Part shown: in pieces, positions 1,043-52,062 of the stretch
How positions within the stretch are numbered: the stretch's first letter is position 1
Layout: each line of letters begins with the position of its first letter
NCBI GenBank assembly: GCA_023381615.1
Contig: JAMCQL010000014.1
Location: forward strand, 16,569-80,568
Source: Bacteroidota bacterium
GTDB lineage: Bacteria > Bacteroidota > Ignavibacteria > Kryptoniales > JAKASW01
Direction: 5' to 3'
Length of the DNA stretch: 64,000 nt
Position numbers and translations under genes: made by a program
Notes under the pieces: model-generated
Database searches by the model: none
Seen by the model: only the letters and a program-made list of their open reading frames with translations
Told to the model about the DNA's origin: nothing

Positions 1043-1238
1043 ACGACGAGTTTACCCAAAATGCCATGAGATTTGAGAATTTGGTCTTGACCTCCCCTTA
1101 GTCCCCTCCTTGACAAGGAGGGGATAAAGGGGTGGTTGATTCGTGATGATCTTAGTAGGCTTATCTTACAACTTGAGTTAGATCCTATGTCGATTTCCAC
1201 GAGGTCCTGTCGATCGTAATCAAAATGGGTAAACTCGT
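1043..1238. mobile_element. 196-bp MITE, copy 1
   Basis: Identical by eye to 43761..43956. The termini ACGACGAGTTTACCCA... and ...TGGGTAAACTCGT form 13-15 bp inverted repeats. A perfect 8-bp direct repeat CGAGGGTT flanks it directly (1035..1042 and 1239..1246). It has a central hairpin CCCCTCCTTGACAAGGAGGGG and no coding capacity. Confidence 0.8.
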
Positions 1239-1244
1239 CGAGGG

Positions 1245-2790
1245 TTCCTGAGTTTCCCACGTTGTTGAGGGAATGTTGAAAAGCCTTGAAATGGAGGTAA
1301 ATTTTGGGTAAACCAGGATGTGAAACCGCACTACGAGAGAATACGGAAAGTGAAGACGGCTTCTGGAAGTACAGCCGTACAGGTAGGATGGTACGTTGGG
1401 AAACGGTTTCATGTGACAAAGCATATTGGTTCAGCTCGCGAGACAGAGAAGGTCGTGGAATTAGTGAGGATGGGGGAAGAATATATTCGTTCGCATTCTC
1501 GGCAAGTAGAACTGAACTTCGACCCACATTCGGAAGAAATCTTATTTAAAAGAGGGATTACTGTTGCCAAGAGCACGCTTTCGGAAGCATACTCTTATCT
1601 GGGTGAGGTATATGAGAAGATCGGCTTTAGGCAACTGAGAAGCGCTGTCCTCAAAGATTTCGCCATTGTTCGAGTATTGGAGCCATCTTCTAAAGCAAGG
1701 TCAGTCTTGCTATTGAAGAAATATTTTGACATCGACTATAAAAAGACAACAGTCTTTAGGCATCTTGATGAATTGGTGGATCTGAAGGATGAAGCAGTCC
1801 GGGTCGCCATAGAATATGCGAGGGAGCATTTGCAATTTGATTTCACCCTTATCTTTTATGATGTCACGACGTTGTACTTTGAGAGTTTTAGCGAAGACGA
1901 GTTAAGACGGAATGGGTTTTCCAAGGACAATAAAATCAATCAGCCGCAAATTCTCATCGGCTTGGTTGTCGATAGAACGGGGTTCCCCATTTACTACGAC
2001 ATGTTCGCCGGGAATACGTTTGAAGGAAAAACAATTATTCCGGTCATCATGGCTCTGAAAGAGCGGTACCAGATAGAGAAGTGTACCATCGTTGCCGATG
2101 CTGGGATGCTTTCTGAAAAGAATTTGGAAGAGCTTCAGAAGAACCGCCTTGATTACATAGTTGGTGCGCGGATAGGCAACATGAACCCTGAGGAGGCGAG
2201 GCGCATTGCAAATCAACTTGAGAAGACAGATAAGAGGATCATTAAATCTGACACTGTACTCTATGAATATTCCGCGGCGAGAGCAAAGAAAGACAAAGCA
2301 GATAATGATAAAGCGATTGCGAAAGCAGAGTACTACCTGAAGCACCCTTCGAGGGTGTTGAAGCGATCTAAGTTTTTAGCAAGCAGCGGAGAGAGGGACT
2401 TTGCTCTTGATGAGAAACTTATCGAGAAACACAGGTTGCTCGAAGGAATAAAGGGATACAGAACCAACATTACCGACGTGCCACCGGATGTTTTGATTGC
2501 TCGCTACAGAGATCTGTGGAAAATCGAGCAATCATTCAGAATAGCAAAATCTGATCTGGGAGAACGACCAATCTACCACCGTATGGAGAGACCGATTAAA
2601 TATCATCTCCTGATTGTCTTTGTCGCACTTTGCATGACACGCGTCATCGAGAAAGAAAAAGGAACATCCATTAACCATATCGTAAGCGAACTCAAGGACA
2701 AATGGACAATTACTCTAAATGATGAAATATCAGGCAATTCCCTTAACATCACCCTCGATAAAAAACCGCACTAAATGGGAAACTCGGGAA
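1245..2790 (+). mobile_element. insertion sequence, IS4 superfamily (IS1634-like), about 1.55 kb
   Basis: Terminal inverted repeats TTCCTGAGTTTCCCA (1245..1259) and TGGGAAACTCGGGAA (2776..2790) are 14/15 complementary. They enclose a single transposase ORF. I found no clear target duplication. Confidence 0.8.
1320..2774 (+). CDS. DDE transposase, IS4/IS1634 group
   Basis: 484 aa with a GTG start. The C-terminal signature YRDLWKIEQSFRIAK (Y-x3-W-x-I-E-x2-F-x3-K) and DAGM... acidic motifs match IS4-superfamily transposases. Confidence 0.85.
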   Translation: MKPHYERIRKVKTASGSTAVQVGWYVGKRFHVTKHIGSARETEKVVELVRMGEEYIRSHSRQVELNFDPHSEEILFKRGITVAKSTLSEAYSYLGEVYEKIGFRQLRSAVLKDFAIVRVLEPSSKARSVLLLKKYFDIDYKKTTVFRHLDELVDLKDEAVRVAIEYAREHLQFDFTLIFYDVTTLYFESFSEDELRRNGFSKDNKINQPQILIGLVVDRTGFPIYYDMFAGNTFEGKTIIPVIMALKERYQIEKCTIVADAGMLSEKNLEELQKNRLDYIVGARIGNMNPEEARRIANQLEKTDKRIIKSDTVLYEYSAARAKKDKADNDKAIAKAEYYLKHPSRVLKRSKFLASSGERDFALDEKLIEKHRLLEGIKGYRTNITDVPPDVLIARYRDLWKIEQSFRIAKSDLGERPIYHRMERPIKYHLLIVFVALCMTRVIEKEKGTSINHIVSELKDKWTITLNDEISGNSLNITLDKKPH

Positions 2791-37623: not shown

Positions 37624-40139
37624 AAAGTCGGCTTCATATTGCCTTGCGCGGTGCAGTGCAAGGTGTTGGATTCAGGCCTTTTGTTTATCGACTTGCTGTG
37701 GAAATGGGACTCAACGGTTGGGTCCTCAATTCATCTCAGGGAGTCTTTATTGAGATTGAGGGCGAGAAGAATCTACTCGACATTTTCCTATCCAGACTCG
37801 AAAAGGAAAAACCGCCGCGTTCATATATTCAGGGAATGGAATTTTCGTTTCTCGACGTTATCGGTTTTACGAAGTTTGAAATAAGAGAGAGCAGTTCGAA
37901 CGGCGAGAAGAGCGCGATTGTTTTGCCTGATATCGCGACATGTCCCGACTGTGCAAGCGAAATTCTTGACCCGAGCAACAGACGGTATTTGTATCCATTT
38001 ACAAATTGCACGAACTGCGGTCCGCGTTTCAGCATAATCAGAGCTCTTCCTTACGATAGGTCGAATACCACGATGCAGAAATTCGAGATGTGCGAGAAGT
38101 GCAGGGAAGAATATAATAATCCGCTCGACAGGCGATTCCATGCGCAGCCGAACGCGTGTCCGAAGTGTGGGCCGCACATCGAGCTTTGGGATAAGAGTGG
38201 CGGCATTTTGTCGATGCGCCGCGATGCGCTTCTTCATGCCGCTGACTCACTCCGGCGTGGTAAAATTGTTGCGCTGAAAGGGATCGGCGGATTCCAGCTG
38301 ATTGTCGACGCAAGAAATGAAGAGGCAGTAAAACTCCTGCGTACCCGGAAGCATCGTGAGGAGAAACCGTTCGCGCTGATGTATCCATCACTAGAATACT
38401 TGAAACGTCATTGTGAAATATCTGAGGTAGAGGAAAGATTGCTTTTATCACCGGAGGCACCGATTGTATTGCTGAGGAGAAAGAAGATAACCTTGTCAAA
38501 GAGCAAGCTACCCTTGCGAAGGTTTCCAGAGACGGATAACCCCAACAGCTTTCATGAGTGTGGAACCTTCGCAAGGTTAAAGGCATCGGATATCGCCGAT
38601 TCCGTGGCGCCTCGGAATCCCTATCTCGGAGCTATGCTGCCTTATACACCGCTCCATCTTATCTTGATGTGTGAGCTTGGATTCCCGGTGGTCGCAACAA
38701 GCGGAAATATTTCTGACGAACCGATTTGTATCGATGAGCACGAGGCGCTGGAAAAGCTGCGGGACATCGCCGATTTGTTCTTGGTTCACGACAGGCCGAT
38801 TGAAAGGCATGTAGATGATTCCGTCGTTCGCATCATGATGGAGCGCGTCCAGATGGTTCGCCGCGCCCGCGGTTATGCGCCGTTTCCGATTGAACTTGAT
38901 GGAGAGAACCATGCGTCGGTGCTTGCAGTCGGTGGGCATTTGAAGAACACAATTGCAATCAATTCGGGAAATAACATTTTTGTGAGTCAGCATATCGGCG
39001 ATCTGTCGACCGAAGAAGCGTTTAAGGCTTTTGAAAAAGTGACTCGCGATTTTCAGAAGCTGTACGAAATCTCACCTCAAGTGATCGCGCACGACATCCA
39101 TCCGGATTATCTCTCGACGCAGTTTGCTCGTGCAGCAATCAGCAGTCAGCAATCAGCGGTCAGCATCCAGCATCACTTTGCTCATGTCGCCTCTTGCATG
39201 GCGGAGAATAAGTTGAATGGGCAAGTGCTTGGAGTTTCCTGGGACGGTACCGGCTACGGTGAAGTCGAAGATCCCCCGAAGGGGCAGGCCGTTCGCGGGA
39301 ACGGGACAGTCTGGGGCGGAGAATTTCTCCTGACAGACGGCGGCGATTATAAACGTGTTGCGACATTTAGATCATTTCGCTTGCCGGGGAATTCGGCGTC
39401 TGTGAAAGAGCCGCGGCGGACAGCGCTCGGAGTTCTTTATGAAATCTTTGGCGAAAAATTGTTCGGGATGACGGAGATGCCGCCTGTCAATGCATTCGAG
39501 GAACAGTCACTGCCAATCTTGAAGAAAATGCTTGAAACTGGTTTGAATTCTCCGACAACGACAAGCGCGGGAAGATTATTTGATGCCGTTTCCTCGATCA
39601 TCGGGCTTCGACAAGTTGTGAATTTCGAAGGACAGGGCGCGATGGAACTTGAGTTTGCCGCGGATGGAACGGAGTCGGATGATTGTTACGATTTTGACGT
39701 TACAGGAAACAGGAGAAAGGAGACAGGAGACAGGACAGGATACGAACCTTCATTCATCGTAAATTGGGAACCGATGGTCAAAGAGATTCTTGATGATAAA
39801 TCGAGGGGTATGCCGGTCGGCTTGATAGCTGCTAAGTTTCATAATACTCTCGCGGCGATTATTGTCGATGTTGCGAAACGAGTCGGCGAAGAAAGGGTCG
39901 TCATTAGTGGCGGATGTTTCCAGAACAGATATCTTACGGAGCGAACGATTTGGCTCTTGAGCGGGAATGGTTTCAAACCTTACTGGCACCAACGAATACC
40001 GCCAAACGACGGAGGGATTTCGCTGGGACAGCTGTTTGTGGCGTTAAGGAAGGAAAAAAGGAGGCAGGAGACGAAAGGCAAAGTGGAAGAATGGAATTGT
40101 GGAGGAATGGAATTGTGGAAGAATGGAATATCTGAGTAA
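37620..40139 (+). CDS. hypF: carbamoyltransferase HypF, about 90 aa longer than typical because of repeat-derived inserts
   Basis: Has the acylphosphatase domain (RGAVQGVGFRPFVY), CPDC..CTNCGPRF..CEKC..CPKCGP zinc fingers, YrdC-like and Kae1-like parts (VQHHFAH, GGCFQN). TTG start overlaps the hypB stop. Confidence 0.9.
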   Translation: MKSRLHIALRGAVQGVGFRPFVYRLAVEMGLNGWVLNSSQGVFIEIEGEKNLLDIFLSRLEKEKPPRSYIQGMEFSFLDVIGFTKFEIRESSSNGEKSAIVLPDIATCPDCASEILDPSNRRYLYPFTNCTNCGPRFSIIRALPYDRSNTTMQKFEMCEKCREEYNNPLDRRFHAQPNACPKCGPHIELWDKSGGILSMRRDALLHAADSLRRGKIVALKGIGGFQLIVDARNEEAVKLLRTRKHREEKPFALMYPSLEYLKRHCEISEVEERLLLSPEAPIVLLRRKKITLSKSKLPLRRFPETDNPNSFHECGTFARLKASDIADSVAPRNPYLGAMLPYTPLHLILMCELGFPVVATSGNISDEPICIDEHEALEKLRDIADLFLVHDRPIERHVDDSVVRIMMERVQMVRRARGYAPFPIELDGENHASVLAVGGHLKNTIAINSGNNIFVSQHIGDLSTEEAFKAFEKVTRDFQKLYEISPQVIAHDIHPDYLSTQFARAAISSQQSAVSIQHHFAHVASCMAENKLNGQVLGVSWDGTGYGEVEDPPKGQAVRGNGTVWGGEFLLTDGGDYKRVATFRSFRLPGNSASVKEPRRTALGVLYEIFGEKLFGMTEMPPVNAFEEQSLPILKKMLETGLNSPTTTSAGRLFDAVSSIIGLRQVVNFEGQGAMELEFAADGTESDDCYDFDVTGNRRKETGDRTGYEPSFIVNWEPMVKEILDDKSRGMPVGLIAAKFHNTLAAIIVDVAKRVGEERVVISGGCFQNRYLTERTIWLLSGNGFKPYWHQRIPPNDGGISLGQLFVALRKEKRRQETKGKVEEWNCGGMELWKNGISE
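38489..38578 (+). repeat. REP-like palindrome element (CCTTGCGAAGG variant) embedded in-frame in hypF
   Basis: AACCTTGTCAAAG...ACCCTTGCGAAGGTT...AACCTTCGCAAGGTT. It is 90 nt (30 codons) and encodes ...TLSKSKLPLRRFPETDNPNSFHECGTFARL... Confidence 0.7.
39137..39171 (+). repeat. heptanucleotide tandem array NNTCAGC x5 inside hypF
   Basis: AATCAGC AGTCAGC AATCAGC GGTCAGC ATCCAGC. Confidence 0.75.
39703..39737 (+). repeat. heptanucleotide tandem array CAGGAGA x5 inside hypF
   Basis: CAGGAAA CAGGAGA AAGGAGA CAGGAGA CAGGACA. Confidence 0.75.
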
Positions 40140-40152
40140 TGGAATTGTGTCT
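40089..40152 (+). repeat. 16-bp tandem repeat x4 spanning the hypF stop codon
   Basis: GAATGGAATTGTGGAG GAATGGAATTGTGGAA GAATGGAATATCTGAG TAATGGAATTGTGTCT. Degenerate AATGGAAT copies continue to about 40540. Confidence 0.8.
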
Positions 40153-40557: not shown

Positions 40558-41661
40558 ATGAAATACATAGACGAATATAGAGATGCAGAGACGGCGAAGA
40601 AATACGCCGAGATGATTCACAAGATCACGACTCGTGAGTGGACTATGATGGAAATATGCGGTGGGCAGACACATGCAATCGTGAAGTTCGGCATCGATTT
40701 TCTTCTCCCGAAAGAAATTACACTTGTTCACGGGCCGGGCTGTCCCGTTTGTGTCACGCCGCTAGAGATAATCGACAAGGCGATTGTCATCGCAAGCCGT
40801 CCCGATGTCATCTTCACATCGTTCGGAGATATGCTTCGCGTTCCCGGCTCGAAAAAAGATTTGCTCACTGTCAAGTCCGAAGGCGGCGACGTTCGAATAG
40901 TATATTCTCCGCTCGATGCGCTTAAGGTGGCACAGCAAAACCCGAACAAGAAAGTTGTGTTCTTCGCAGTGGGATTTGAAACGACCGCTCCGGCGAACGC
41001 GATGGCTGTCTGGCAGGCGAGGGAATTAGGCGTAAAGAATTTTTCGGCGCTTGCTTCGCACGTTCTTGTTCCGCCGGCGATGGTGGCGATATTGTCTTCG
41101 CCTTCTCATCTTGTCCAAGCTTTTCTTGCAGCCGGGCATGTTTGCACGGTGATGGGATACGAAGACTATTTCCCGATTGCGGGAAAATACAAAGCGCCGA
41201 TCATCGTAACGGGTTTCGAGCCGGTGGATATTCTGCAGGGAATTTATATGGCAGTTAAGCAGCTTGAAGAAGGGAGAGTCGACGTCGAGAATCAATATGC
41301 GCGTGCGGTTCGAAGAGAAGGAAATATTCCCGCGAAGAAGTTGCTCGCAGATGTATTCGAGGTCATTGACAGGAAGTGGCGCGGCATTGGAATAATTCCG
41401 CAGAGCGGCTGGGGATTGAAACCGGAATTTGCGGACCACGATGCAGAGAAAATCTTCGACGTTGGTGGAATCGAGACTCAGGAATCGCCTCTCTGCATCG
41501 CGGGAGAAATTTTGCAGGGGCTGAAGAAGCCGCATGAGTGCACTGCCTTCGGAACGCTTTGCAAGCCCGAGCATCCGTTAGGTGCGCCGATGGTGTCGTC
41601 GGAAGGAGCGTGTGCGGCGTATTTCGCCTATGGAAGGTATAGGGAGGCCGATGGACGTTGA
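40558..41661 (+). CDS. hypD: hydrogenase maturation protein HypD
   Basis: Has [27 protein letters not shown] and FFAVGFETT. Confidence 0.93.
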
Positions 41662-41799
41662 GCATTTCGCTGGACTAAATTCGAAACTCGAAAAACTAAA
41701 TCCTAAACAAATCCGAAATCCTAAATCGGAAATTCCGAATTGCGAAATCCTTTGTTTTGGATTTTTGTCATTCGAATTTGTCCCGTCAAAAACTATTTA

Positions 41800-41876
41800 T
41801 CCCGCTCATTATTACCAGAAAAGGAATATGCGGGATGCCGCAAGGCGGCATATGTCGGGATGCCGAAAAGCGGCAT
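41800..41876 (+). repeat. hairpin repeat family TCCCGCTCA..ATTATT..TGCGGGATGCCGC, copy in hypD-hypE spacer
   Basis: TCCCGCTCATTATTACCAGAAAAGGAATATGCGGGATGCCGCAAGGCGGCATATGTCGGGATGCCGAAAAGCGGCAT. Confidence 0.6.
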
Positions 41877-41924
41877 TTAGAGTTTCGGATTTCTGAACGA
41901 CGTTAGTCAACAAAGGAAGAGGTT

Positions 41925-42992
41925 ATGTCAAGTTACCGGCAATTAGACCTTAGAAGCGGCTTCGCCTGTCCGATTCCGAAGTCGGACTATACAAACATCC
42001 TCCTCGCACACGGCAGCGGCGGAAAACTCACTCACCAGCTAATCGAGAAAATGTTCGTGCCTCAATTTCAAAACGAACTTCTTGAGCCGCTCCACGATGG
42101 CGCAGTATTTACTGCTGGAAACAAACGGTTCGCATTCTCGACCGATTCATTTGTCGTCAGTCCGATCTTCTTTCCGGGCGGAGACATAGGTGAGCTCGCA
42201 ATAAACGGAACCGTAAACGACATTGCGATGTGCGGAGCGAAGCCGTTGTATTTGTCATCGGCGTTCATCATTGAAGAAGGTCTTCCAATTGACGATCTGT
42301 GGCGAGTTGTGCTCTCCATGCAAGAAGCGGCCAAGCGGGCTGGAGTTCTGCTTGTTACCGGCGATACGAAAGTCGTGGACCGCGGAAAAGGGGACAAGAT
42401 TTTTATCAACACTTCCGGCATCGGGATAATTGAGGATGGCGTCGACATAAGTCCGAAGCGGATAAAAGTCGGCGACAAGATAATTGTGAACGGCGAAATC
42501 GCGGTGCACGGAATTGCGATAATGTCCGTCCGCGAGGGATTAGAATTCGAGACTCAGATCAAAAGCGACACCGCGCCGTTGAATGGACTCGTCGAGGAAA
42601 TGCTGAAGGCAAGCAAAAACATACACGTTATGCGCGACCCGACCCGCGGTGGAGTTGCAACGACACTGAACGAATTGGCCGAGCAGTCGAACCTCGGAAT
42701 TCTTGTCAATGAAGAAAGCATCCCTGTATCGGATGACGTCAAAGGAGCGTGTGAGATCCTCGGCTTAGATCCGCTTTACATTGCCAACGAAGGAAAGCTC
42801 CTCGCGTTTGTTTCGCCTGAAGATGCAGACAAAGTCTTGGATACAATGCGGAGACATCCGCTTGGCAAAGGCTCGGTCATAATCGGAGAAGTTGTCGACC
42901 GGTATCCGGGCACGGTGGTCATGAAAAGCAAAATCGGCGGGACGAGAGTCGTTGACATGTTGACAGGCGAACAGCTTCCAAGGATCTGTTAG
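41925..42992 (+). CDS. hypE: hydrogenase maturation protein HypE
   Basis: AIR-synthase-like fold (AHGSGG, VTGDTKVV, MRDPTRGG) and the C-terminal PRIC motif. Confidence 0.93.
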   Translation: MSSYRQLDLRSGFACPIPKSDYTNILLAHGSGGKLTHQLIEKMFVPQFQNELLEPLHDGAVFTAGNKRFAFSTDSFVVSPIFFPGGDIGELAINGTVNDIAMCGAKPLYLSSAFIIEEGLPIDDLWRVVLSMQEAAKRAGVLLVTGDTKVVDRGKGDKIFINTSGIGIIEDGVDISPKRIKVGDKIIVNGEIAVHGIAIMSVREGLEFETQIKSDTAPLNGLVEEMLKASKNIHVMRDPTRGGVATTLNELAEQSNLGILVNEESIPVSDDVKGACEILGLDPLYIANEGKLLAFVSPEDADKVLDTMRRHPLGKGSVIIGEVVDRYPGTVVMKSKIGGTRVVDMLTGEQLPRIC

Positions 42993-43020
42993 ACCGTTGA
43001 ACACGCCGGATATAAGAAAG

Positions 43021-43051
43021 GGGCGCTCAGTTGGACGCCCATTTCTTTTTT
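43021..43051 (+). terminator. Rho-independent terminator after hypE
   Basis: GGGCG-N10-CGCCC followed by ATTTCTTTTTT. Confidence 0.6.
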
Positions 43052-43096
43052 GTTTCAATGAAAAAATTGCTAATATTTTTTGCCTGTTGGCCGCGG

Positions 43097-43203
43097 TTCT
43101 TTGATTCCGAGGTTGTATGCCATGAAAGCCAGCACATCCGCAGCTTGCGCGATGCGCTTGTCTGTCGGCATGTAGTTGTGGCTCGTCTTTGTCTCGACTC
43201 GAA
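43097..43203 (-). pseudogene. orphan duplicate of the prolyl-oligopeptidase 3' end (left copy of a 107-bp direct repeat)
   Basis: Base-for-base identical to 44048..44154. In frame it encodes ...ETKTSHNYMPTDKRIAQAADVLAFMAYNLGIKE, then its own tail PRPTGKKY and a stop. Confidence 0.8.
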
Positions 43204-43243
43204 CTAATGCACGGTTTCCTTGCGCAAATCAGACCTCGGCGCA

Positions 43244-43498
43244 TCACTTATACACATCTTTTCTATGCTTGATTCTGTAGATCAGGATTTCTTTACCCTT
43301 ATCAGAGATTTCATATAGGATGCGATAATTGCCCGCGCGAATTCTATATCCGTCAGTGCCTGTAAGCTTCTGTACGCCAATCGGCCGTGGCTCTTCAGAA
43401 AGGTTTTGTATCCGGGATGAAATGTGTAAGACTTCCTTATCGGGAAGCGAATCCAGATCTTTTTGCGCTGATGGCTTAACGATTATCTCGTATGCCAC
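43244..43498 (-). CDS. RelE/ParE-family type II toxin
   Basis: 84 aa, MAYEIIVKPSAQKDLDSLP...YRIRAGNYRILYEI...ILIYRIKHRKDVY. Confidence 0.8.
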   Translation of the reverse strand: MAYEIIVKPSAQKDLDSLPDKEVLHISSRIQNLSEEPRPIGVQKLTGTDGYRIRAGNYRILYEISDKGKEILIYRIKHRKDVYK

Positions 43499-43691
43499 GC
43501 TTGCTCAAGTATCCGATCAAGGTTAGATCTTTCCCTTTTACAGTCTTTGCGCTCTCCAAATCATACTTGTCTTCAAGCAATTCAACCAGTTCACCAAAGG
43601 TCGGACTCTTCTTCAACTGTTCCCATTCCTTCCTCGGAATGCGAATATCATCTTTCCTTTGCTGCAACCGCGCTCTTCGATTGGCTAACAT
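43476..43691 (-). CDS. putative cognate antitoxin
   Basis: 71 aa. The ATG at 43691 follows GAGGTG. It overlaps the toxin start by 23 nt. Family not recognised. Confidence 0.55.
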   Translation of the reverse strand: MLANRRARLQQRKDDIRIPRKEWEQLKKSPTFGELVELLEDKYDLESAKTVKGKDLTLIGYLSKRGIRDNR

Positions 43692-43760
43692 TGTATCACC
43701 TCTGTAAAAATCTCTTCTGAATAAGTTAAGGCAATTTTCTGGGACGGTCAACAGGAAGCG

Positions 43761-43956
43761 ACGACGAGTTTACCCAAAATGCCATGAGATTTGAGAATTT
43801 GGTCTTGACCTCCCCTTAGTCCCCTCCTTGACAAGGAGGGGATAAAGGGGTGGTTGATTCGTGATGATCTTAGTAGGCTTATCTTACAACTTGAGTTAGA
43901 TCCTATGTCGATTTCCACGAGGTCCTGTCGATCGTAATCAAAATGGGTAAACTCGT
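43761..43956. mobile_element. 196-bp MITE, copy 2
   Basis: Identical by eye to 1043..1238. GAAGCG is repeated on both flanks (43755..43760 and 43958..43963, the right copy offset by 1 nt). Confidence 0.8.
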
Positions 43957-44029
43957 TGAAGCGACCGATCAGCCATCGAATTTCAGCCACTGTCTGACTG
44001 CTGAAAGCTGACAGCTGATCGCGCCTTTT

Positions 44030-46315
44030 TTACTTTCCCGCCGGTGCTTCTTTGATTCCGAGGTTGTATGCCATGAAAGCCAGCACATCCGCAGCTTGCG
44101 CGATGCGCTTGTCTGTCGGCATGTAGTTGTGGCTCGTCTTTGTCTCGACTCGAATCAGCACCGGGTTATCACAAGCCTGATCGTGCTGCATCTCGGCGAT
44201 GAATTTGTATGAGTGGCTCGGCACGACCCTGTCATCGTGATCGGCGGTCGTGACAATTGTCGGAGGATAACATGTACCAGGCTTGATGTTCTGCACCGGT
44301 GAATATTTGATAAGATACTGGAAATCAGTTGAGTCATCCGATGAACCGTACTCAGGAACCCAACCTACTCCCGCGGAAAATTTCTGGTAACGAAGCATGT
44401 CCATGACTCCCGCGCCGGCGTATGCTGCTCCGTAAAGGTCGGGGCGCTGTGTCTCTACAGCACCGATAAGAAGTCCGCCATTCGAATATCCCTCGATGCC
44501 GAGCTTCGGTGTCGATGTGTATTTTTCTTTTATCAGGTATTCGGCAGCGGCAATGAAATCGTCGAACACGTTCTGCTTTTTGCTCAGCATCCCAGCGTGA
44601 TGCCACGCTTCGCCATATTCGCCGCCGCCTCGTAAGTTTGCCACCGCATAAATGCCGCCCATCTCAAGCCAGGCGGCGGTCGTAGGACTGAATGACGGCG
44701 TGATGCTGATATTGAATCCGCCGTAGGCATAAAGGAGTGTCGGGTTCTCCCCGTCGAGCTTCAATCCCTTTTTCATCGTAATAAACATCGGAATTCGAGT
44801 GCCATCTTTGGAGTGATAAAACACTTGCTTTGTCTCATAATTGTTTGGACTAAAGTCTACATGCGGCGGTTGGAATTCCGTGCTCTTTCCTGTCTTGTCC
44901 CGACGAAGGTCGGGATCCTTCGGAAAGTCATAATGGAACACTGTTGTTGGATAGAGAAATGACGTGAAAGCGTAGAATAGCTCCGGTGTGTCGTAACGGC
45001 CGCTCATTCCTCCTACTGTGCCAAGTCCGGGTAGCTTCAGTTTTCCTTCGGCTTTTCCTTTGAGCGAGTAGAATGACACTTCGCTCTTCGCATCGACGAG
45101 ACGCATGACAACAACCCGTCCGCCCGCGAGGAGCGACTGCTCAATCACATTCTTCGATTCAGGAACGACTGTCTTCCAATTTTTCGGATCGGGATGGTTT
45201 ATATCGAATGACACCATGCGACGGTTCGGTGCATCAAGAGTTGTCTGCATATAAAGTGTCGTCCCGACATTTCCAATCGGATAGTATTCGGCGTCGTCTT
45301 TTTCAAATAACGGAGTGACAGGCGATGAAAGGTCGGGATTTCCCGGGTCTTTCAGATCGACATAATAGACTTTGTTTTTGGACTCCGTCCCTTTATTCAG
45401 GATTATGAAAAGGTACCGCCCATCTTCCGTTACTCCACCGCCAACGTACCAGCCGGGATAGTCTTTCAGGTCATAGAAAAGTTTATCGTCGCTCTGTGGA
45501 GTTCCGAGTTTGTGGTAGTAAAGCTCCTGTCCGACAGCCTCGGACATCAGAGCCTCACCCTTCTTTGGCTCCGGGAATCTCGAATAGAAGAATCCGCGGT
45601 TGTCGTTCGTCCACGCGATTCCTGAGAATTTTACCCAATGAACCGTGTCGGCGAGATCTTTTCCGGTCGCAAGGTCGCGGACATGAAGCTCCTCCCAATC
45701 CGCTCCGCCTTGAGAAAGTCCATAGCATAGATATTTCCCATTCGGCGAGGCCTCATAGCTTAGAAGCGCAATCGAGCCGTCGGGCGAGAGCTTGTTCGGA
45801 TCGAGGATCATCCTTGGTTTGCCCGCCAAAGACTTCTGGACGTAAACCGGGCTTTGGTTCTGCAATCCGGAGTTCTTGCTGTAGAAGAGTTCCCCCGACC
45901 GGGTCGGGGTCGGCACTCCGACCTTCTCGTAGTTCCAGAGCTTTGTGATTCTTTTATTGATCCACTTTCGGACGGGAATCTTGCCTAAGTAATCGAAGGT
46001 GACTTTGTTTTCCGCTTCGACCCACGTTTCCACTTCAGGACTGTTTTGATTCTCCATCCATTGATATGGGGCGGGGACTTTCGTTCCGAAATAATTGTCA
46101 ACGATAGTATCCCTGCGTGCGACCGGATAAGTCAAGGATTGGCCTTTGACGGTGAGCGGTAAAATAATCATAGCGACAAGAATGAATAATTCGAAGTTAA
46201 GCGCGGTCCGAGTTCCCAGGAAAGATGGAATGTTTCCCTTCCTCGTTCGTCTCGATTGATAAATAGGAATAGCGAAGATCAGCAGAATGCTGAAGAGTAT
46301 TAAGAGCGCTGACAT
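44030..46315 (-). CDS. prolyl oligopeptidase (S9A serine peptidase)
   Basis: N-terminal beta-propeller and a C-terminal hydrolase with GYSNGGLL (nucleophile Ser), ...TADHDDRV... and TKTSHNY. The true start may be an internal Met before the signal-like MIILPLTVKG. Confidence 0.9.
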   Translation of the reverse strand: MSALLILFSILLIFAIPIYQSRRTRKGNIPSFLGTRTALNFELFILVAMIILPLTVKGQSLTYPVARRDTIVDNYFGTKVPAPYQWMENQNSPEVETWVEAENKVTFDYLGKIPVRKWINKRITKLWNYEKVGVPTPTRSGELFYSKNSGLQNQSPVYVQKSLAGKPRMILDPNKLSPDGSIALLSYEASPNGKYLCYGLSQGGADWEELHVRDLATGKDLADTVHWVKFSGIAWTNDNRGFFYSRFPEPKKGEALMSEAVGQELYYHKLGTPQSDDKLFYDLKDYPGWYVGGGVTEDGRYLFIILNKGTESKNKVYYVDLKDPGNPDLSSPVTPLFEKDDAEYYPIGNVGTTLYMQTTLDAPNRRMVSFDINHPDPKNWKTVVPESKNVIEQSLLAGGRVVVMRLVDAKSEVSFYSLKGKAEGKLKLPGLGTVGGMSGRYDTPELFYAFTSFLYPTTVFHYDFPKDPDLRRDKTGKSTEFQPPHVDFSPNNYETKQVFYHSKDGTRIPMFITMKKGLKLDGENPTLLYAYGGFNISITPSFSPTTAAWLEMGGIYAVANLRGGGEYGEAWHHAGMLSKKQNVFDDFIAAAEYLIKEKYTSTPKLGIEGYSNGGLLIGAVETQRPDLYGAAYAGAGVMDMLRYQKFSAGVGWVPEYGSSDDSTDFQYLIKYSPVQNIKPGTCYPPTIVTTADHDDRVVPSHSYKFIAEMQHDQACDNPVLIRVETKTSHNYMPTDKRIAQAADVLAFMAYNLGIKEAPAGK

Positions 46316-46572
46316 TGTTCCTCCTTTTTCTTGTTTTCAAACTTGATGCTGCCGTTTATTTAGAAAATTTCATTGATGGATTACCGTTTTCAAACATCGG
46401 GGAGAAATTCTTGATGATTGAATTGAAGTGTATGCTTTCGATCATTGTTATAAATATCGCAGGAGTGGGCTGAGGTTGCAAGTGGAGTCGGCAGATTAGT
46501 ATTTCTCGATAACGTTTGATTTATTGAATGTGCATAGATACCTTATTCGAGAAGTATAGAGGAGGAAAGTAT

Positions 46573-46995
46573 ATGGCAGACTCAATTCAGTCAAAATCGG
46601 AAGATATCGGCAAGTTGATTCTCCGCATTACGATAGGCGGACTTTTACTTTTCCACGGAATATTCAAACTCATACACGGCGTCGAGTGGATGAAAGGTCC
46701 CCTCAGCGCGTTTTACTTGCCGGGCTTTCTTGCCTACGGTGTCTATATTGCAGAAGTGATCGCGCCTGTTCTTATCATTGTCGGTTTCTGGACTCGTCCC
46801 GCGGCACTTATTATTGCGTTCGATTTGTTCATGGCGATCGTGCTCGTCGGGAGACAGGCTATTTTTACAGTCAAGCAAGCCGGAGGCGGATGGGGAATCG
46901 AGCTGGAAGCATTCTTCCTTCTCGGTTCGTTTGTCCTCTTCTTTTTAGGTGCGGGGAAATACAGTATCACAAAAGGACAGGGCAAGTGGAATTGA
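46573..46995 (+). CDS. DoxX-family membrane protein
   Basis: Has GKLILRITIGGLLLFHGIFKL and four TM segments. The ATG at 46573 follows GGAGGA. Confidence 0.7.
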   Translation: MADSIQSKSEDIGKLILRITIGGLLLFHGIFKLIHGVEWMKGPLSAFYLPGFLAYGVYIAEVIAPVLIIVGFWTRPAALIIAFDLFMAIVLVGRQAIFTVKQAGGGWGIELEAFFLLGSFVLFFLGAGKYSITKGQGKWN

Positions 46996-47089
46996 AAGCG
47001 AGAATCTTTAGTTCATTCACTGCGTAGTATTTTCTGCGTAAAAATTTTTCCTACATATATCGGAATATATTTTGGTGAGGGAAGTTACC

Positions 47090-47851
47090 ATGAAGACTGG
47101 CGATAAGATTAAAGAAGAAGTAAAAGAGAAATACAGCGAGGTTGCCAAGGGAAATTTAAAAGCAATCAAAAGTATATCGGGTTCATGCTGCGGTGGAGAC
47201 AAAGTTGTTGTAGATATGGCGCTTAAGTATGGCGATGCAGATAGAGATGCAATTCCCGATGGGGCTGACCTCGGTCTTGGCTGTGGAACACCAACTGCTT
47301 TTGCGGACATAAAAGAAGGGATGACCGTGCTTGATCTTGGCTCCGGTGCTGGCATTGATTGCTTCATCGCGTCAAAATACGTCGGCTCTGCTGGAAAAGT
47401 CATCGGCGTCGATATGACCGAGGCAATGATCCGGAAAGCCAACGAGAACAAAGCAAAGGTAAATGCTGCGAACGTTGAGTTTCGACTTGGCGAAATCGAA
47501 TCGCTTCCGGTGGAGAATAATGCGGTGGATAGAGTCATCAGCAATTGTGTCATCAATCTTGTGCCCGACAAGGAAGTTGCCTTTAGAGAGATACATCGGG
47601 TGTTGAAACTCGGCGGCAAGTTCACGGTTTCCGATATCGTTGTGGACGGAGAAATATCGGACGAAGAACGGCGCGACGCTTCTTTGTGGGCAGGATGCAT
47701 AAGCGGTGCGATGGATAGGAAAGATTACCTTGCAGTTATCGAGAAAGTTGGATTTAAAAACGTGCAAGTGACCTCCGAGAAAAAGTACGATTACAAACTG
47801 AGTGGTGGAGGTGGACTTTATTCCATAACTGTTGTTGCCGCGAAGGAATAG
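47090..47851 (+). CDS. SAM-dependent methyltransferase, arsenite methyltransferase (ArsM)-like
   Basis: Has SCCGG, GLGCGTP, VLDLGSGAGID, ISNCVINL and AGCISGA, a Cys pattern like ArsM. Confidence 0.7.
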   Translation: MKTGDKIKEEVKEKYSEVAKGNLKAIKSISGSCCGGDKVVVDMALKYGDADRDAIPDGADLGLGCGTPTAFADIKEGMTVLDLGSGAGIDCFIASKYVGSAGKVIGVDMTEAMIRKANENKAKVNAANVEFRLGEIESLPVENNAVDRVISNCVINLVPDKEVAFREIHRVLKLGGKFTVSDIVVDGEISDEERRDASLWAGCISGAMDRKDYLAVIEKVGFKNVQVTSEKKYDYKLSGGGGLYSITVVAAKE

Positions 47852-48382
47852 AGACCGATACTTTCTCGTCTAACCTTTCCGGGGGAGGATTTTGAACGAC
47901 CATTTTTATTGCGGGCACAACTTATTTTCTTAGGGCGCTTCGTAAAAGCCATCGTGGTCTTTGTGTTTACATTCTTTTTTGTTTGTGGCTACGCCGCTTT
48001 AGGGAAACGCCCGACACAGTCTGCCCGTCCGTATGATGAATGGCGTGCATTGGGTTGACACTATGCCAATTTGAGACTAATTTACGGCTGTAGCCATTCC
48101 TCTGCCGATAGTCGGTGGCGCACTTTTTCAACCGGATGCGGTGGATTGAGTCGGCCTGAATCATGTTATCTAAGTACCTTTTGTTAAGTTCGAGGGATGC
48201 TCGAGCTCCATTCTACAGACTTCTAATACCTCATTTTTTGCCGTCCGTCCATGATTGACGGACGGATATTCCGGCTGAAATAGCCTCGACTCTTCCGAGC
48301 CGGTTTTGCCGGATCATTTTCCGAGAAATGGTTGACTGAATTAGACGTAGATCTTATTAACGATTTGACAAGGGAGGTTATC

Positions 48383-49860: not shown

Positions 49861-50195
49861 TACGGCGTAGAAATCCACCGCCTAAGGCAGTGGTAATGGA
49901 CGAATGGCTTTGCCGGTCGAACTCTCCCCTTCGCTCCCCCTCTCTTTGCGAAAGAGAGGGGGACGGGGGGTGAGTTAGGATGCAGGACTACATGAAGGAA
50001 ATCCAGCTCATCGTTTTCTACGAAGCCACCGCCTTTGGCGGTGGTCGTTCACTACGGGAGGCGCTCGTGAAGAGTCCAAAGAAACCGAGTGTCCGGACAG
50101 TTCATAGGGAATTATTTAAGCATCCCTCTGGTTTCCATGCTCCGGTACTGAGCGTCAAGAACATCCCCCGACGAAGATCGTCGGAGGGAGTAAAT

Positions 50196-50332
50196 AATCT
50201 TGGTCCTGTGAACATTGCATTAACTGGGAGCAAGAAAAAGACAAAGACATTTGCAGCAAATGTTACTGGGGAAATCCAGAAAACTATTTACACATTGCAT
50301 TACGCACAGCTCGACGCCTCGATATTCTATAA
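50196..50332 (+). pseudogene. relic 3' end (about 44 codons plus stop) of an HNH endonuclease gene
   Basis: 50196..50307 is identical to 51815..51926 inside the intact HNH gene. Similarity continues with 3 mismatches to 50328. The relic keeps the frame (..CEHCINWEQEKDKDICSKCYWGNPENYLHIALRTARRLDIL) and ends at its own TAA. Confidence 0.75.
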
Positions 50333-50418: not shown

Positions 50419-51333
50419 ATGAGAACTCCTCATCCTATACCGTATCAAGGAAGCAAACGAAATCTTGCACCCAAGATTTTGTCCTTTATTCCCTCCGATA
50501 TTCAGACATTGTTTGAGCCTTTTGCCGGGTCAGCCGCAGTGTCTATAGCAGCCGCTCTCAGGAAAAAAAGCAAGCTCTTTCATCTTAACGACATAAACAA
50601 ACCGCTCATGGATTTATGGGAATTGATTATTAAAAAACCTGAGGTAATTGTCAAGCAATATGCCAAACTCTGGCATGATCAAAAGGGGAACGAAAGAGAG
50701 TTTTATGACAGGGTGAGAGAGAAGTTCAATAAAACACGAAGGCCGGACTTTCTCTTATACCTTCTTGCGCGATGTGTCAAAGCTGCTATACGGTATAACT
50801 TTGATGGAGAGTTTAACCAAAGTCCGGATAATCGACGGCTTGGACGGCATCCATCCTTGATGAAGCAAGATATCTTGGCTGCATCATATTTACTTAAGAA
50901 TCGCTCAACTCTTACTTGCCAGGATTATAGGGAAGTTCTAAGTCGAGCGAAAAAGCACGACCTCATATATATGGACCCGCCGTATCAAGGTACTTTTGCA
51001 AGCGGCGGATTCCGCTACTTTAAAGATTTGGAGTTCGAAACTTTCGTGTCTTCTTTATATGATCTCACGAGCAGAGACATCCCATTCATCCTAAGCTATG
51101 ATGGACGTACTGAGGACAAAACCTTTGGTAAACCCTTGCCACAGGATCTAGGGTTAAAGAAGATAGAGATTAAAGCCGGCAGATCTTCTCAAGCAACCCT
51201 GTTAGGACGTAATCACTTCACGTATGAATCTCTATATTTATCAAAAGCTTTAATAGTTAAACTAAGGATAGATTCAAAAGAAATCACGGATCACAAATCT
51301 ATTCAACAGACAGAGATGTTTAGCTCCTACTAA
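50419..51333 (+). CDS. Dam-like (D12 class, alpha-type) N6-adenine DNA methyltransferase
   Basis: Has PYQGSKRNLAPKI, FEPFAGSAAVS (SAM motif) and IYMDPPYQG (DPPY). Confidence 0.85.
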   Translation: MRTPHPIPYQGSKRNLAPKILSFIPSDIQTLFEPFAGSAAVSIAAALRKKSKLFHLNDINKPLMDLWELIIKKPEVIVKQYAKLWHDQKGNEREFYDRVREKFNKTRRPDFLLYLLARCVKAAIRYNFDGEFNQSPDNRRLGRHPSLMKQDILAASYLLKNRSTLTCQDYREVLSRAKKHDLIYMDPPYQGTFASGGFRYFKDLEFETFVSSLYDLTSRDIPFILSYDGRTEDKTFGKPLPQDLGLKKIEIKAGRSSQATLLGRNHFTYESLYLSKALIVKLRIDSKEITDHKSIQQTEMFSSY

Positions 51334-52062
51334 ATGAAAAAGCAAAACCCGCCGAAACAATTTCTGAAGATGGCTCGGACAATTACGAACAAGAGGGCGA
51401 AAATTGTCATAGAGCACATTTTGAAGCATGGCTTCATAACAACTGAAGATTTAGAAACCAAATATGGCTATAACCATCCACCTCGTGCTGCACGAGATGT
51501 CCGTGAAGCCGGCATTCCTCTTGAAACATTCAAGGTCAAGGATAGGAAAGGTAGATCAATCGCGGCGTATAGATTTGGGGACTTTTCCAAAATCCAGAAG
51601 AACAAACTTAGTGGCAGGGCAGTCTTTTCAAAGGAATTCAAAGAAGAACTTTTCAAGATGCAGAGTGGCAGGTGTGCAATATGCAATGGCACCTTTGAAA
51701 CTCGGTACCTTCAGATAGACCACAGGGTTCCGTATGAAGTTGCTGGAGATAAAGCTTCGACAAAAAAAGAGACTTCGGAGTTCATGCTGCTCTGTGCCTC
51801 ATGCAACAGAGCAAAATCTTGGTCCTGTGAACATTGCATTAACTGGGAGCAAGAAAAAGACAAAGACATTTGCAGCAAATGTTACTGGGGAAATCCAGAA
51901 AACTATTTACACATTGCATTACGCACGGTTCGGCGCCTCGATATTCTCTGGGAAGAAAACGAAATCAAGAGTTATGATAGGCTTAGAACTCTGGCAGAAC
52001 AAGAAAAGACACCTCTACCCGATTTTGTGAAGAAAACCTTGGAGAAACAATTCAAAAACTAA
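51334..52062 (+). CDS. HNH-family restriction endonuclease candidate
   Basis: Starts 1 nt after the methyltransferase stop. Has CAICNG...LQIDHRVPY...LLCASCNRAKS (HNH) plus CEHC...CSKC zinc-ribbon-like Cys pairs. Confidence 0.75.
   Translation: MKKQNPPKQFLKMARTITNKRAKIVIEHILKHGFITTEDLETKYGYNHPPRAARDVREAGIPLETFKVKDRKGRSIAAYRFGDFSKIQKNKLSGRAVFSKEFKEELFKMQSGRCAICNGTFETRYLQIDHRVPYEVAGDKASTKKETSEFMLLCASCNRAKSWSCEHCINWEQEKDKDICSKCYWGNPENYLHIALRTVRRLDILWEENEIKSYDRLRTLAEQEKTPLPDFVKKTLEKQFKN

What the first reader, a model, noticed from the sequence alone, without database searches (positions are those of the whole stretch)
43097..44154. Toxin-antitoxin + MITE segment inserted with a perfect 107-bp duplication of the prolyl oligopeptidase 3' end
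43097..43203 and 44048..44154 are identical direct repeats. They cover the last ~35 codons of the oligopeptidase gene.

The 844 bp between them carry a RelE/ParE toxin, its antitoxin, MITE copy 2 and a heptamer array. The intact gene uses the right copy and ends ...GIKEAPAGK. The orphan left copy keeps the frame and ends ...GIKEPRPTGKKY next to the hypE terminator, so it is probably the original 3' end.

The duplication is far longer than a transposase-type target duplication. It resembles the 'insertion with long target duplication' I recall being described for mobile R-M units in Helicobacter.
Basis: partly seen in the sequence, partly recalled or inferred. Interest (0 to 1): 0.6.

Follow-up and report, generated by a model that had tools for sequence, protein, structure and literature searches.

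The report
Toxin-antitoxin cassette flanked by duplicated gene end
A two-gene toxin-antitoxin cassette sits at the end of a peptidase gene between two identical 107-base copies of that gene's end. Relatives of the cassette in other bacteria often show the same layout, which suggests how such cassettes get into chromosomes.

Summary
43097-43203 and 44048-44154 are identical 107-nt direct repeats of the 3' coding end of an S9 prolyl oligopeptidase (POP). Between them lie a RelE/ParE toxin, its antitoxin and a 195-bp MITE.

Eleven other contigs from independent assemblies span both copies, five from named MAG assemblies and six ENA k141 contigs, so the occupied structure is not an artefact. Three MAG contigs carry the empty site. 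There POP ends ...GIKEPRPTGKKY, 78 nt from convergent hypE, with one repeat copy. Their flanks match occupied contigs of the same lineage at every variable site. These need read-level confirmation.

The MITE arrived later: it has an 8-bp target duplication and is absent from an otherwise identical contig.

The pattern recurs. Of 68 assessable relatives of this toxin, 13 are bracketed by direct repeats of 30-196 nt, against 1 of 151 shifted controls (p = 1e-6). About ten of these duplicate the 3' end of an ordinary neighbouring gene, and the inserts hold only the cassette.

This matches 'insertion with long target duplication', described for restriction-modification units. I found no report of it for toxin-antitoxin systems. 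How the duplication forms is unresolved.

The parts
41925..42992 (+). hypE (hydrogenase maturation), convergent neighbour of POP in the empty allele
   Evidence: Pfam AIRS and AIRS_C. In L091-L093 it lies 78 nt from the POP stop.
43021..43040 (.). Bidirectional terminator hairpin between hypE and the original POP end. In the occupied allele it lies downstream of the toxin gene.
   Evidence: Terminator-like site; T-run on the + strand read from the sequence.
43070..43096 (-). Original POP tail PRPTGKKY plus stop, now orphaned
   Evidence: In-frame translation. It is the C-terminus of the 764-aa POP P0003 of the empty-site contigs.
43097..43203 (-). Left (orphan) copy of the 107-nt direct repeat
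   Evidence: 100% identical to 44048-44154. It carries a 1-nt deletion in lineage D contigs L002, L003 and L100.
43204..43243 (-). 40-nt spacer between the toxin stop and the orphan copy. The novel joint is at 43203/43204.
   Evidence: No homology to POP DNA upstream of the repeat.
43244..43498 (-). RelE/ParE-superfamily toxin, 84 aa
   Evidence: PF05016, E = 4.5e-12. TIGR02385 RelE_StbE, E = 1.4e-5, below cut-off. Intact in all lineages.
43476..43694 (-). Antitoxin candidate, 72 aa, overlapping the toxin start by 23 nt
   Evidence: ORF. No Pfam or NCBIfam family. A small ORF is called or readable at this position in those relatives where gene calls or ORFs were inspected.
43695..43754 (-). 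Leader and putative promoter of the TA operon (-35-like TTGACC at 43751..43746 on the minus strand)
   Evidence: Read from the sequence. Inferred; the consensus scan did not call it.
43755..43965 (.). MITE (43763-43957, 195 bp, terminal inverted repeats GACGAGTTTACCC) with an 8-bp target duplication GAAGCGAC (43755-43762 and 43958-43965)
   Evidence: 99% identical to 1043-1241. Absent, leaving a single GAAGCGAC, in L001, L086-L090, L193 and L194.
43966..44029 (-). Insert DNA downstream of the present POP stop. It forms an imperfect hairpin that includes the so-called heptamer array.
   Evidence: Fold dG -33.8 kcal/mol, z = -2.0. TRF 2.7 copies, score 31.
44030..44047 (-). Present POP tail APAGK plus stop, supplied by the insert side
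   Evidence: Translation. Reads PPAGK in lineage D.
44048..44154 (-). Right copy of the 107-nt repeat, part of the intact POP gene
44030..46315 (-). Prolyl oligopeptidase (S9), 761 aa
   Evidence: Pfam E = 1e-116 and 2e-57. Orthologues 75-82% identical in other Candidatus Kryptoniota MAGs.

Best explanation
A minimal type II toxin-antitoxin operon is inserted at the 3' end of the POP gene. It consists of a promoter region, an antitoxin and a RelE/ParE-family toxin, 641 bp before the MITE arrived. It carries no recombinase or transposase of its own. The insertion is accompanied by a long direct duplication of the target: 107 bp of POP coding sequence.

POP stays intact. It keeps one copy of its conserved last 35 codons and reads five further codons from the insert. 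The other copy, with the old tail and the old terminator, is left as an orphan next to hypE.

The two identical repeats are substrates for host homologous recombination. That recombination can delete the cassette precisely and restore the original gene. In reverse, it could re-insert an excised circle. The addictive toxin-antitoxin pair would be expected to penalise loss.

Shown: the structure, its reproducibility, the empty allele, the later arrival of the MITE, and the recurrence of the architecture in the toxin family.

Inferred: that the duplication arose at insertion, that the empty allele arises by recombination between the repeats, and that the cassette is addictive. The enzymology of the primary insertion is unknown.
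For: **Occupied structure is real.** Eleven further contigs span both copies. Five come from named MAG assemblies and six are ENA contigs named k141: L001, L086-L090, L095, L099, L100, L193, L194. If k141 denotes the k-mer length, as in MEGAHIT naming, it exceeds the 107-nt repeat.

**Empty allele.** L091-L093 have one repeat copy, POP ending PRPTGKKY, and hypE 78 nt away. They share all flank SNPs with occupied contigs L086-L090 of the same lineage.

**Coherent empty site.** A bidirectional terminator sits between hypE and the orphan end.

**Tolerated tail change.** POP tails after NLGIK(E) vary greatly between species.

**Sharp joint.** Homology stops abruptly at 43203/43204.

**Nothing but the cassette.** The insert holds only the TA genes plus a MITE that is absent elsewhere.

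**Family-wide recurrence.** 13 of 68 relatives are bracketed by direct repeats of 30-196 nt. Reversed-sequence controls gave 0 of 136 and shifted controls 1 of 151 (Fisher p = 1.1e-6). About ten of the 13 duplicate the 3' end of a neighbouring ordinary gene: dUTPase, Omp85, a GGDEF regulator, YdjM, a TPR protein.
- Inserts are 489-1136 nt with no shared end motif or terminal inverted repeat.
- No integrase or transposase family is among the 25 most frequent families in 149 flanking ORFs.

**Precedent.** R-M units insert with long, variable target duplications that often span a stop codon (PMC2853133).
Against: **Empty allele is thinly supported.** It is seen only in three short MAG contigs from one assembly series. 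An assembler can skip a repeat-bounded loop. No reads were available.

**Tails do not fit a simple duplication.** Perfect identity ends 27 nt before the old stop codon. The two tails differ (APAGK versus PRPTGKKY) yet are similar in register in lineage D (15 of 21 nt, p = 5e-5). A clean target duplication does not predict a perfect core next to a diverged tail. This suggests two alleles, or gene conversion between the copies.

**Some repeats are diverged.** Repeats in several relatives are only 81-90% identical. This means either old insertions or copies that differed from the start.

**Not every case is a target duplication.** The L139 repeat is a multi-copy intergenic repeat.

**Age of the cassette.** The cassette differs between lineages A and B about as much as the flanks do. 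No recent movement of the cassette into a new site is demonstrated in this species.
Confidence: 0.6

Rival explanations
1. **Hybrid-allele origin.** The cassette arrived together with a POP 3' end from another strain. It could have entered as a circle carrying a POP fragment that integrated by a single homologous crossover (Campbell type). Alternatively, linear DNA was anchored by homology in POP and joined illegitimately at its other end (homology-facilitated illegitimate recombination). On this view the two repeat copies derive from donor and recipient alleles rather than from one duplicated target.
For: - The tail after the right copy (APAGK; PPAGK in lineage D) resembles genuine POP tails of other species, such as EPAGKE, LPAGN and PPAGE.
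- It is similar in register to the orphan tail in lineage D (15 of 21 nt).
- Repeats in relatives are often 81-90% identical, and in L185 both copies keep their own stop codons.
- Recombination is rife at this locus. Lineage D is a mosaic whose about 11%-diverged patch ends exactly at the left repeat.
Against: - The two 107-nt copies are identical, although this stretch is only 71-90% identical between species and no more conserved than neighbouring POP DNA. The donor would have to be nearly the same strain, or conversion must have followed.
- The tail similarity in the window itself is not significant (10 of 21 nt, p = 0.1).
- No donor configuration (POP-APAGK followed by the cassette without an orphan copy) was found in any contig.
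Confidence: 0.2
2. **Remnant of a decayed integrative element.** A larger element with an integrase once integrated into the 3' end of POP, bringing a replacement gene end. The repeats are attL and attR. Later deletions removed everything except the toxin-antitoxin pair, which resists loss.
For: - The architecture is typical of elements that target gene 3' ends: an intact gene with a replaced tail and a displaced original end.
- L175 shows three stacked copies of a gene end, as tandem integrations would leave.
Against: - No contig of this species shows anything larger between the repeats.
- Inserts in 13 relatives are uniformly minimal. The downstream repeat starts within 7-54 nt of the toxin stop in nine of them and within 86-208 nt in the other four.
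- The repeats are all different sequences with no common core.
- Flanking genes are housekeeping, and no integrase family is among the frequent neighbours.
Confidence: 0.1
3. **The cassette is native and the orphan was imported.** POP originally ended APAGK and was followed by the cassette. The hyp gene cluster arrived later from a donor in which hypE lay next to POP, carrying a fragment of the donor's POP end.
For: In other Candidatus Kryptoniota species hypE is not downstream of POP, whereas DoxX upstream is syntenic. The hyp-POP junction is therefore specific to this lineage.
Against: - The orphan copy is 100% identical to the resident gene over 107 nt.
- The empty allele forms a coherent convergent gene pair with a shared terminator.
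- The same cassette-plus-orphan layout recurs at unrelated genes in relatives.
Confidence: 0.05
4. **Assembly artefact.** The duplication, or the insert, is a mis-join at a repeat.
For: Several contigs break in or next to the MITE or the repeat (L004, L005, L097, L098). L096 is a palindromic chimera.
Against: Eleven other contigs from different samples and pipelines traverse both copies. Six of them are named k141; if that denotes the k-mer length it exceeds the repeat.
Confidence: 0.02

Closest known systems
Insertion with long target duplication of restriction-modification units (Nobusato et al. 2000, Gene 259:99; Furuta, Abe and Kobayashi 2010, PMC2853133)
   Same: - An addiction-type gene pair with no mobility gene.
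- Bracketing direct repeats of tens to hundreds of bp that are single-copy in an empty-site relative.
- Repeats that tend to span a gene's stop so the target gene survives.
- Variable repeat length from case to case.
   Different: - The cargo is a RelE/ParE toxin-antitoxin operon, not R-M genes.
- Perfect identity stops 27 nt before the old stop codon, and the gene acquires a new five-residue tail.
- The double-strand-break rationale proposed for R-M enzymes does not obviously apply to an mRNA-interferase-type toxin.
- I found no report of this mode for TA systems. A 2020 review states that how TA systems integrate into genomes is unelucidated (PMC7167474).
Integrative elements that target the 3' end of protein-coding genes and supply a replacement end (for example phage 21 and e14 in icd of E. 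coli; cited from memory, not checked here)
   Same: A duplicated gene 3' end as flanking direct repeats, an intact gene using the element-proximal copy, and a displaced original end.
   Different: No integrase is present. The insert is only 641 bp plus the MITE. Relatives use many unrelated targets with no shared core.
Campbell-type (single-crossover) integration of circular DNA by homologous recombination
   Same: It produces exactly this product: insert flanked by a direct duplication of the homologous segment. It is reversed by recombination between the repeats.
   Different: It requires a circle that already carries a POP fragment. The origin of that first circle is unexplained.
Chromosomal type II TA modules found between housekeeping genes with strain-to-strain presence or absence (ccdO157 between folA and apaH; mazEF in relA-mazG; PMC7167474)
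   Same: A solitary TA operon in an otherwise conserved neighbourhood, polymorphic within a species.
   Different: For those loci no long flanking target duplication is described in the papers I could read.

Membership tests
Insertion with long target duplication (criteria of Furuta et al. 2010) | The insert contains the complete addiction module (there: both R and M genes) | tested here: met
   Toxin and antitoxin ORFs are both inside the insert and intact in all lineages. The module is TA, not R-M, so this is the criterion by analogy only.
Insertion with long target duplication (criteria of Furuta et al. 2010) | Insert shorter than 20 kb and without a mobility gene | tested here: met
   844 bp, or 641 bp without the MITE. 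Only TA ORFs have family hits. The MITE is non-coding and absent in other alleles.
Insertion with long target duplication (criteria of Furuta et al. 2010) | Flanking direct repeat longer than 30 bp | tested here: met
   107 bp, 100% identical.
Insertion with long target duplication (criteria of Furuta et al. 2010) | An empty site in a related genome aligns with both flanks and holds one copy of the repeat | tested here: met
   L091-L093. Caveat: three short MAG contigs, with no read-level check.
Insertion with long target duplication (criteria of Furuta et al. 2010) | The repeat is not a multi-copy genomic repeat | tested here: inconclusive
   Only two copies in the 64-kb window. The whole genome was not available.
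Type II toxin-antitoxin system, RelE/ParE superfamily | Toxin matches the family profile above its threshold | tested here: met
   PF05016, 46.8 bits against a cut-off of 23. About 50% identical to annotated RelE-like toxins of actinophages.
Type II toxin-antitoxin system, RelE/ParE superfamily | Small antitoxin gene immediately upstream, translationally coupled | tested here: met
   72-aa ORF overlapping the toxin start by 23 nt. It has no recognised antitoxin family.
Type II toxin-antitoxin system, RelE/ParE superfamily | Toxicity and neutralisation by the antitoxin | not testable with these tools
   Needs expression experiments.
Site-specific integrative element (att sites at a gene 3' end) | Integrase or recombinase gene within the element | tested here: not met
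   No such ORF between the repeats in any contig.
Site-specific integrative element (att sites at a gene 3' end) | Related elements share a common att core | tested here: not met
   The thirteen bracketed relatives use unrelated repeats with no shared motif. The exception is loci with the same orthologous target gene.
MITE (non-autonomous transposable element) | Terminal inverted repeats, short target-site duplication, no ORF, several copies, empty site | tested here: met
   - Terminal inverted repeat GACGAGTTTACCC.
- 8-bp duplication GAAGCGAC.
- Second copy at 1043-1241, next to an IS1634-family transposase gene.
- Empty site in L001.

Integron gene cassette | Cassette bounded by attC recombination sites, next to an integron integrase or array | not tested
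   The repeats here are POP coding sequence and the neighbours are housekeeping genes. No formal attC search was run.

The most novel reading that the evidence does not exclude
This RelE/ParE toxin-antitoxin family could be a self-contained mobile cassette. On this reading it enters chromosomes at the ends of ordinary genes by creating long target duplications. It can then be excised and re-inserted by the host's own homologous recombination, without any dedicated recombinase. That would supply a general mechanism for the unexplained mobility of chromosomal toxin-antitoxin modules. It would also extend the 'selfish addiction module' life cycle proposed for restriction-modification systems.
Probability: 0.3. 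Interest if true: 0.75.

Novelty: new variant of a known kind. Interest (0 to 1): 0.55.

Why it matters
How chromosomal toxin-antitoxin modules move and integrate is an acknowledged open question. A 2020 review says the mechanisms 'remain unelucidated to this day' (PMC7167474).

This locus offers a clean natural example with occupied and apparently empty alleles in one population. The survey indicates that about one in five relatives of the cassette carries the same signature: bracketing repeats that duplicate a neighbouring gene's end.

That links toxin-antitoxin modules to the 'insertion with long target duplication' known for restriction-modification units. It also yields concrete tests:
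- excision and circle detection;
- recA dependence;
- surveys of empty sites across genomes.

For annotation it has a practical side. Such insertions leave orphan gene-end fragments and change the C-terminal tail of the host gene.

Tried and rejected
- **Homology beyond the repeat on the gene's 5' side.** The orphan reads FAQGNRALV against CDNPVLI in POP. This is not significant (p about 0.5).
- **The 107 nt as an island of nucleotide conservation.** Rejected. Identity between species is 71-90%, like neighbouring POP DNA.
- **Exact 43-mer scan of metagenome contigs** for further alleles or a circle junction. No hits.
- **Related species for the hypE-POP junction.** hypE is not downstream of POP in other Kryptoniota species, so only conspecific contigs were informative.
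- **A second empty site, for relative L139.** All seven contexts were occupied, and its repeat turned out to be a multi-copy intergenic repeat.
- **Plasmid origin.** No DNA match in PLSDB.
- **Shared terminal inverted repeats or end motifs** among the 13 bracketed inserts. None found.
- **Antitoxin family assignment.** No hit in Pfam or NCBIfam.
- **Heptamer array as a distinct feature.** Marginal.
- **Literature search for TA systems with long target duplication.** Nothing found. Pandey and Gerdes 2005 is not held.
Full report
**Observation**

The window holds two identical 107-nt direct repeats, 43097-43203 and 44048-44154. There are no other copies in the 64 kb.

The right copy encodes RVETKTSHNYMPTDKRIAQAADVLAFMAYNLGIKE, near the end of a 761-aa S9 prolyl oligopeptidase (POP; 44030..46315, minus strand; Pfam E = 1e-116 and 2e-57). 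POP then ends APAGK*.

The left copy is an orphan. It keeps the frame and ends PRPTGKKY*, about 30 nt from a hairpin (43021-43040) that can terminate transcription in both directions between it and convergent hypE (41925..42992).

Identity stops abruptly on the gene's 5' side. Nothing beyond 43203/43204 resembles POP (p about 0.5 against shuffles; identity to orthologues at background level).

**Contents of the 844-bp insert**

All features are on the minus strand.
- An 84-aa RelE/ParE-superfamily toxin, 43244..43498. It matches PF05016 at E = 4.5e-12 and RelE_StbE at E = 1.4e-5, just below cut-off. It is about 50% identical to annotated RelE-like toxins of actinophages.
- A 72-aa upstream ORF, 43476..43694, overlapping the toxin start by 23 nt. 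It has no known family.
- A short leader with a -35-like TTGACC. This was read from the sequence; the consensus scan did not call it.
- A 195-bp MITE, 43763-43957.
- 64 nt that fold into an imperfect hairpin (dG -33.8 kcal/mol, z = -2.0).

The 'heptamer array' is only 2.7 copies with TRF score 31.

**The MITE is a separate, later event**

- It is 99% identical to 1043-1241, which lies beside an IS1634-family transposase gene (1320..2774; E = 1.5e-86).
- It has terminal inverted repeats and an 8-bp target duplication, GAAGCGAC.
- It is missing, leaving one GAAGCGAC, from contig L001, which matches the window with a single mismatch over the stretch compared. It is also missing from L086-L090, L193 and L194.

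**Is the structure real?**

The organism is a Candidatus Kryptoniota MAG. The window probably comes from a 149.6-kb NCBI contig.

Eleven other contigs traverse both repeat copies:
- L001 (GCA_027400995.1);
- L086 (GCA_027401045.1);
- L087 (GCA_027401035.1);
- L088, L089, L090, L095, L099 and L100 (six ENA assemblies whose contig names begin k141);
- L193 (GCA_027339145.1);
- L194 (GCA_021791435.1).

 If k141 denotes the k-mer length, as in MEGAHIT naming, it exceeds the 107-nt repeat. The occupied arrangement is therefore not an assembly artefact.

**The empty site**

The 90%-identity protein cluster of POP contains a 764-aa variant, P0003, ending ...GIKEPRPTGKKY.

It is encoded on L091, L092 and L093 (GCA_027401105.1, GCA_027401005.1, GCA_027401055.1). 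There POP is followed after 78 nt by convergent hypE, with a single copy of the 107 nt. It shows that the orphan left copy is the original gene end.

These three contigs share every flank SNP with the occupied contigs L086-L090 (lineage B, about 2% from the window). Presence or absence therefore varies within one lineage.

Caveat: all three are short contigs from one MAG series, and a repeat-bounded loop can be skipped by an assembler. The same series also produced occupied contigs (L001, L086, L087), which argues against a systematic collapse. Reads are still needed.

**Direction of the polymorphism**

The lineage B cassette differs from the window's at about 10 of 557 positions, much like the flanks. 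Both gene products are intact in all lineages. The cassette is thus older than the split of these lineages.

The empty allele is most simply a precise deletion by recombination between the repeats, though an ancestral empty state is not excluded.

**Puzzles at the repeat's 3' edge**

POP tails after NLGIK(E) are hypervariable between species, and motifs such as PAGK or PTGQ recur.

In the window the two tails match at 10 of 21 positions in register (p = 0.1). In lineage D (L100) they match at 15 of 21 (p = 5e-5), reading PPAGK* and PPPVGKK.... The duplication may therefore originally have reached the stop codon, with the core since homogenised by gene conversion. Alternatively the two copies may stem from different alleles.

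Lineage D is a mosaic:
- a patch about 11% diverged (42303-43092) ends exactly at the left repeat;
- a second diverged patch (43979-47) abuts the right repeat;
- both 107-nt copies carry no substitutions.

I cannot fully explain this pattern.

**Generality**

The toxin's nearest relatives outside the species are 70-73% identical.

I fetched 80 metagenome loci encoding relatives plus three others. For each I asked whether DNA 150-900 nt upstream of the toxin shares a direct repeat with the 500 nt downstream.
- Of 68 assessable loci, 13 scored 17 or more, and 9 scored 24 or more.
- Reversed-sequence controls never exceeded 13 (0 of 136).
- Pseudo-cassettes shifted by 1.4-2 kb within the same loci reached 17 in 1 of 151 cases (Fisher p = 1.1e-6).

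With gaps allowed, the repeats are 30-196 nt long and 81-100% identical. The inserts are 489-1136 nt.

In about ten cases the repeat is the 3' end of an ordinary neighbouring gene:
- dUTPase (L185; 196 nt, both copies keeping a stop codon);
- Omp85/BamA (L114, L116, L134);
- a GGDEF response regulator (L142);
- YdjM (L138);
- a TPR protein (L175; three stacked copies);
- unnamed upstream ORFs in L154 and L157;
- POP in the window.

 The intact gene lies either upstream and co-oriented, or downstream and convergent.

Further properties of the bracketed inserts:
- They hold only the cassette.
- The downstream repeat starts within 7-54 nt of the toxin stop in nine of the 13 loci and within 86-208 nt in the rest.
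- No end motif or terminal inverted repeat is shared.
- Among 149 nearest flanking ORFs, the frequent families are housekeeping, and none of the 25 most frequent is an integrase or transposase.
- One case (L139) is instead a multi-copy intergenic repeat that also flanks a HipBA module. One (L101) duplicates a terminator hairpin.

**Comparison with what is known**

Nobusato et al. (2000) and Furuta et al. (2010; PMC2853133) described 'insertion with long target duplication' for restriction-modification units:
- no mobility gene;
- repeats from over 30 bp to about 400 bp;
- an empty site in a relative;
- repeats often spanning a start or stop codon so the target gene survives.

This locus meets those criteria except that the cargo is a toxin-antitoxin pair. 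A review of R-M and TA systems attributes this mode to R-M only (PMC3874152). A 2020 TA review says the way TA systems integrate is unelucidated (PMC7167474). My searches found no report of the pattern for TA systems.

**Mechanism**

I favour a recombinase-free insertion of a bare TA operon with a long duplication of the target, maintained and occasionally deleted through host homologous recombination (confidence 0.6).

Rivals, in order of weight:
- A hybrid-allele route, either Campbell-type integration of a circle carrying a POP fragment or homology-facilitated illegitimate recombination (0.2). It explains the tails better, but it needs a nearly identical donor or later conversion.
- A decayed integrase-borne element (0.1). 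It fits the gene-end replacement, but not the uniformly minimal inserts, the unrelated targets or the housekeeping neighbourhoods.
- Import of the hyp side together with the orphan (0.05).
- Assembly artefact (0.02). This remains open only for the empty allele.

**Verdict**

The locus is a new variant of a known kind of event. Its value lies in the population-level alleles and the family-wide recurrence, which make a mechanism for TA mobility testable.

Noticed in passing
window 50196-50328 and 51815-51947 (genes 50419..51333 and 51334..52062): A second long direct repeat (133 nt, 98%) brackets a Dam-family DNA methyltransferase gene and the 5' two-thirds of an adjacent HNH endonuclease gene. 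The upstream copy is a non-coding orphan of an internal part of the HNH gene. The whole R-M-like unit is absent from lineage B, where homology to L086 stops at 49865.
   Followed up: partly
window 1043-1241 and 1320-2774: MITE copy 1 lies directly beside an IS1634-family transposase gene (E = 1.5e-86). The DNA just upstream of that gene contains TTTTGGGTAAAC, like the MITE's terminal repeat, so the MITE probably derives from this IS.
   Followed up: partly
window 42303-43092 and 43979-44047, compared with L002, L003 and L100: Lineage D is a mosaic. An about 800-bp patch with about 11% divergence ends exactly at the left repeat, and a 69-nt patch with about 9% divergence abuts the right repeat. 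The repeats, the cassette, the MITE and the rest are nearly identical to the window. Unexplained.
   Followed up: partly
L100 (ERZ27233565 k141_782453), equivalent to window 43167 and 44091: Each repeat copy carries a different 1-nt deletion. The one in the orphan copy is shared by L002 and L003. The one in the functional copy would frameshift the last 22 codons of POP. It is either a real mutation or an assembly error.
   Followed up: no
window 46487-48362: DoxX and a SAM-dependent methyltransferase gene upstream of POP are replaced by about 290 nt in lineage B (L086), although DoxX-POP synteny is conserved in other Kryptoniota species.
   Followed up: no
window 41661-41925, compared with L086-L093: Lineage B has an extra gene of 127-132 aa (Pfam 23S_rRNA_IVP / bAvd-like four-helix bundle) between hypD and hypE. 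The window has 264 nt with short AAATCC-type repeats there.
   Followed up: no
window 40070-40149: A 16-nt tandem repeat (GGAATGGAATTGTGGA-like, about 5 copies) sits at the 3' end of hypF. Further degenerate copies occur up to about 40530.
   Followed up: no
L175 962-1893: Three copies of one gene's 3' end are stacked around a related TA cassette: the gene's own end, an orphan 12 nt downstream of it, and a third copy after the toxin. This suggests repeated events at one site.
   Followed up: no
L139 2454-2626 and 3301-3501; L189 6989-7131 and 8273-8394: In an Ignavibacteriaceae population, a repeat of about 170-190 nt flanks both a RelE-type cassette and a neighbouring HipBA module. The layout resembles an array of TA cassettes separated by a common repeat.
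   Followed up: partly
L096 (ERZ27233560 k141_1343593): A 1.5-kb contig folds back on itself: window 43958-44179, then 44285-44057 inverted. It looks like a palindromic assembly chimera at the right repeat.
   Followed up: no
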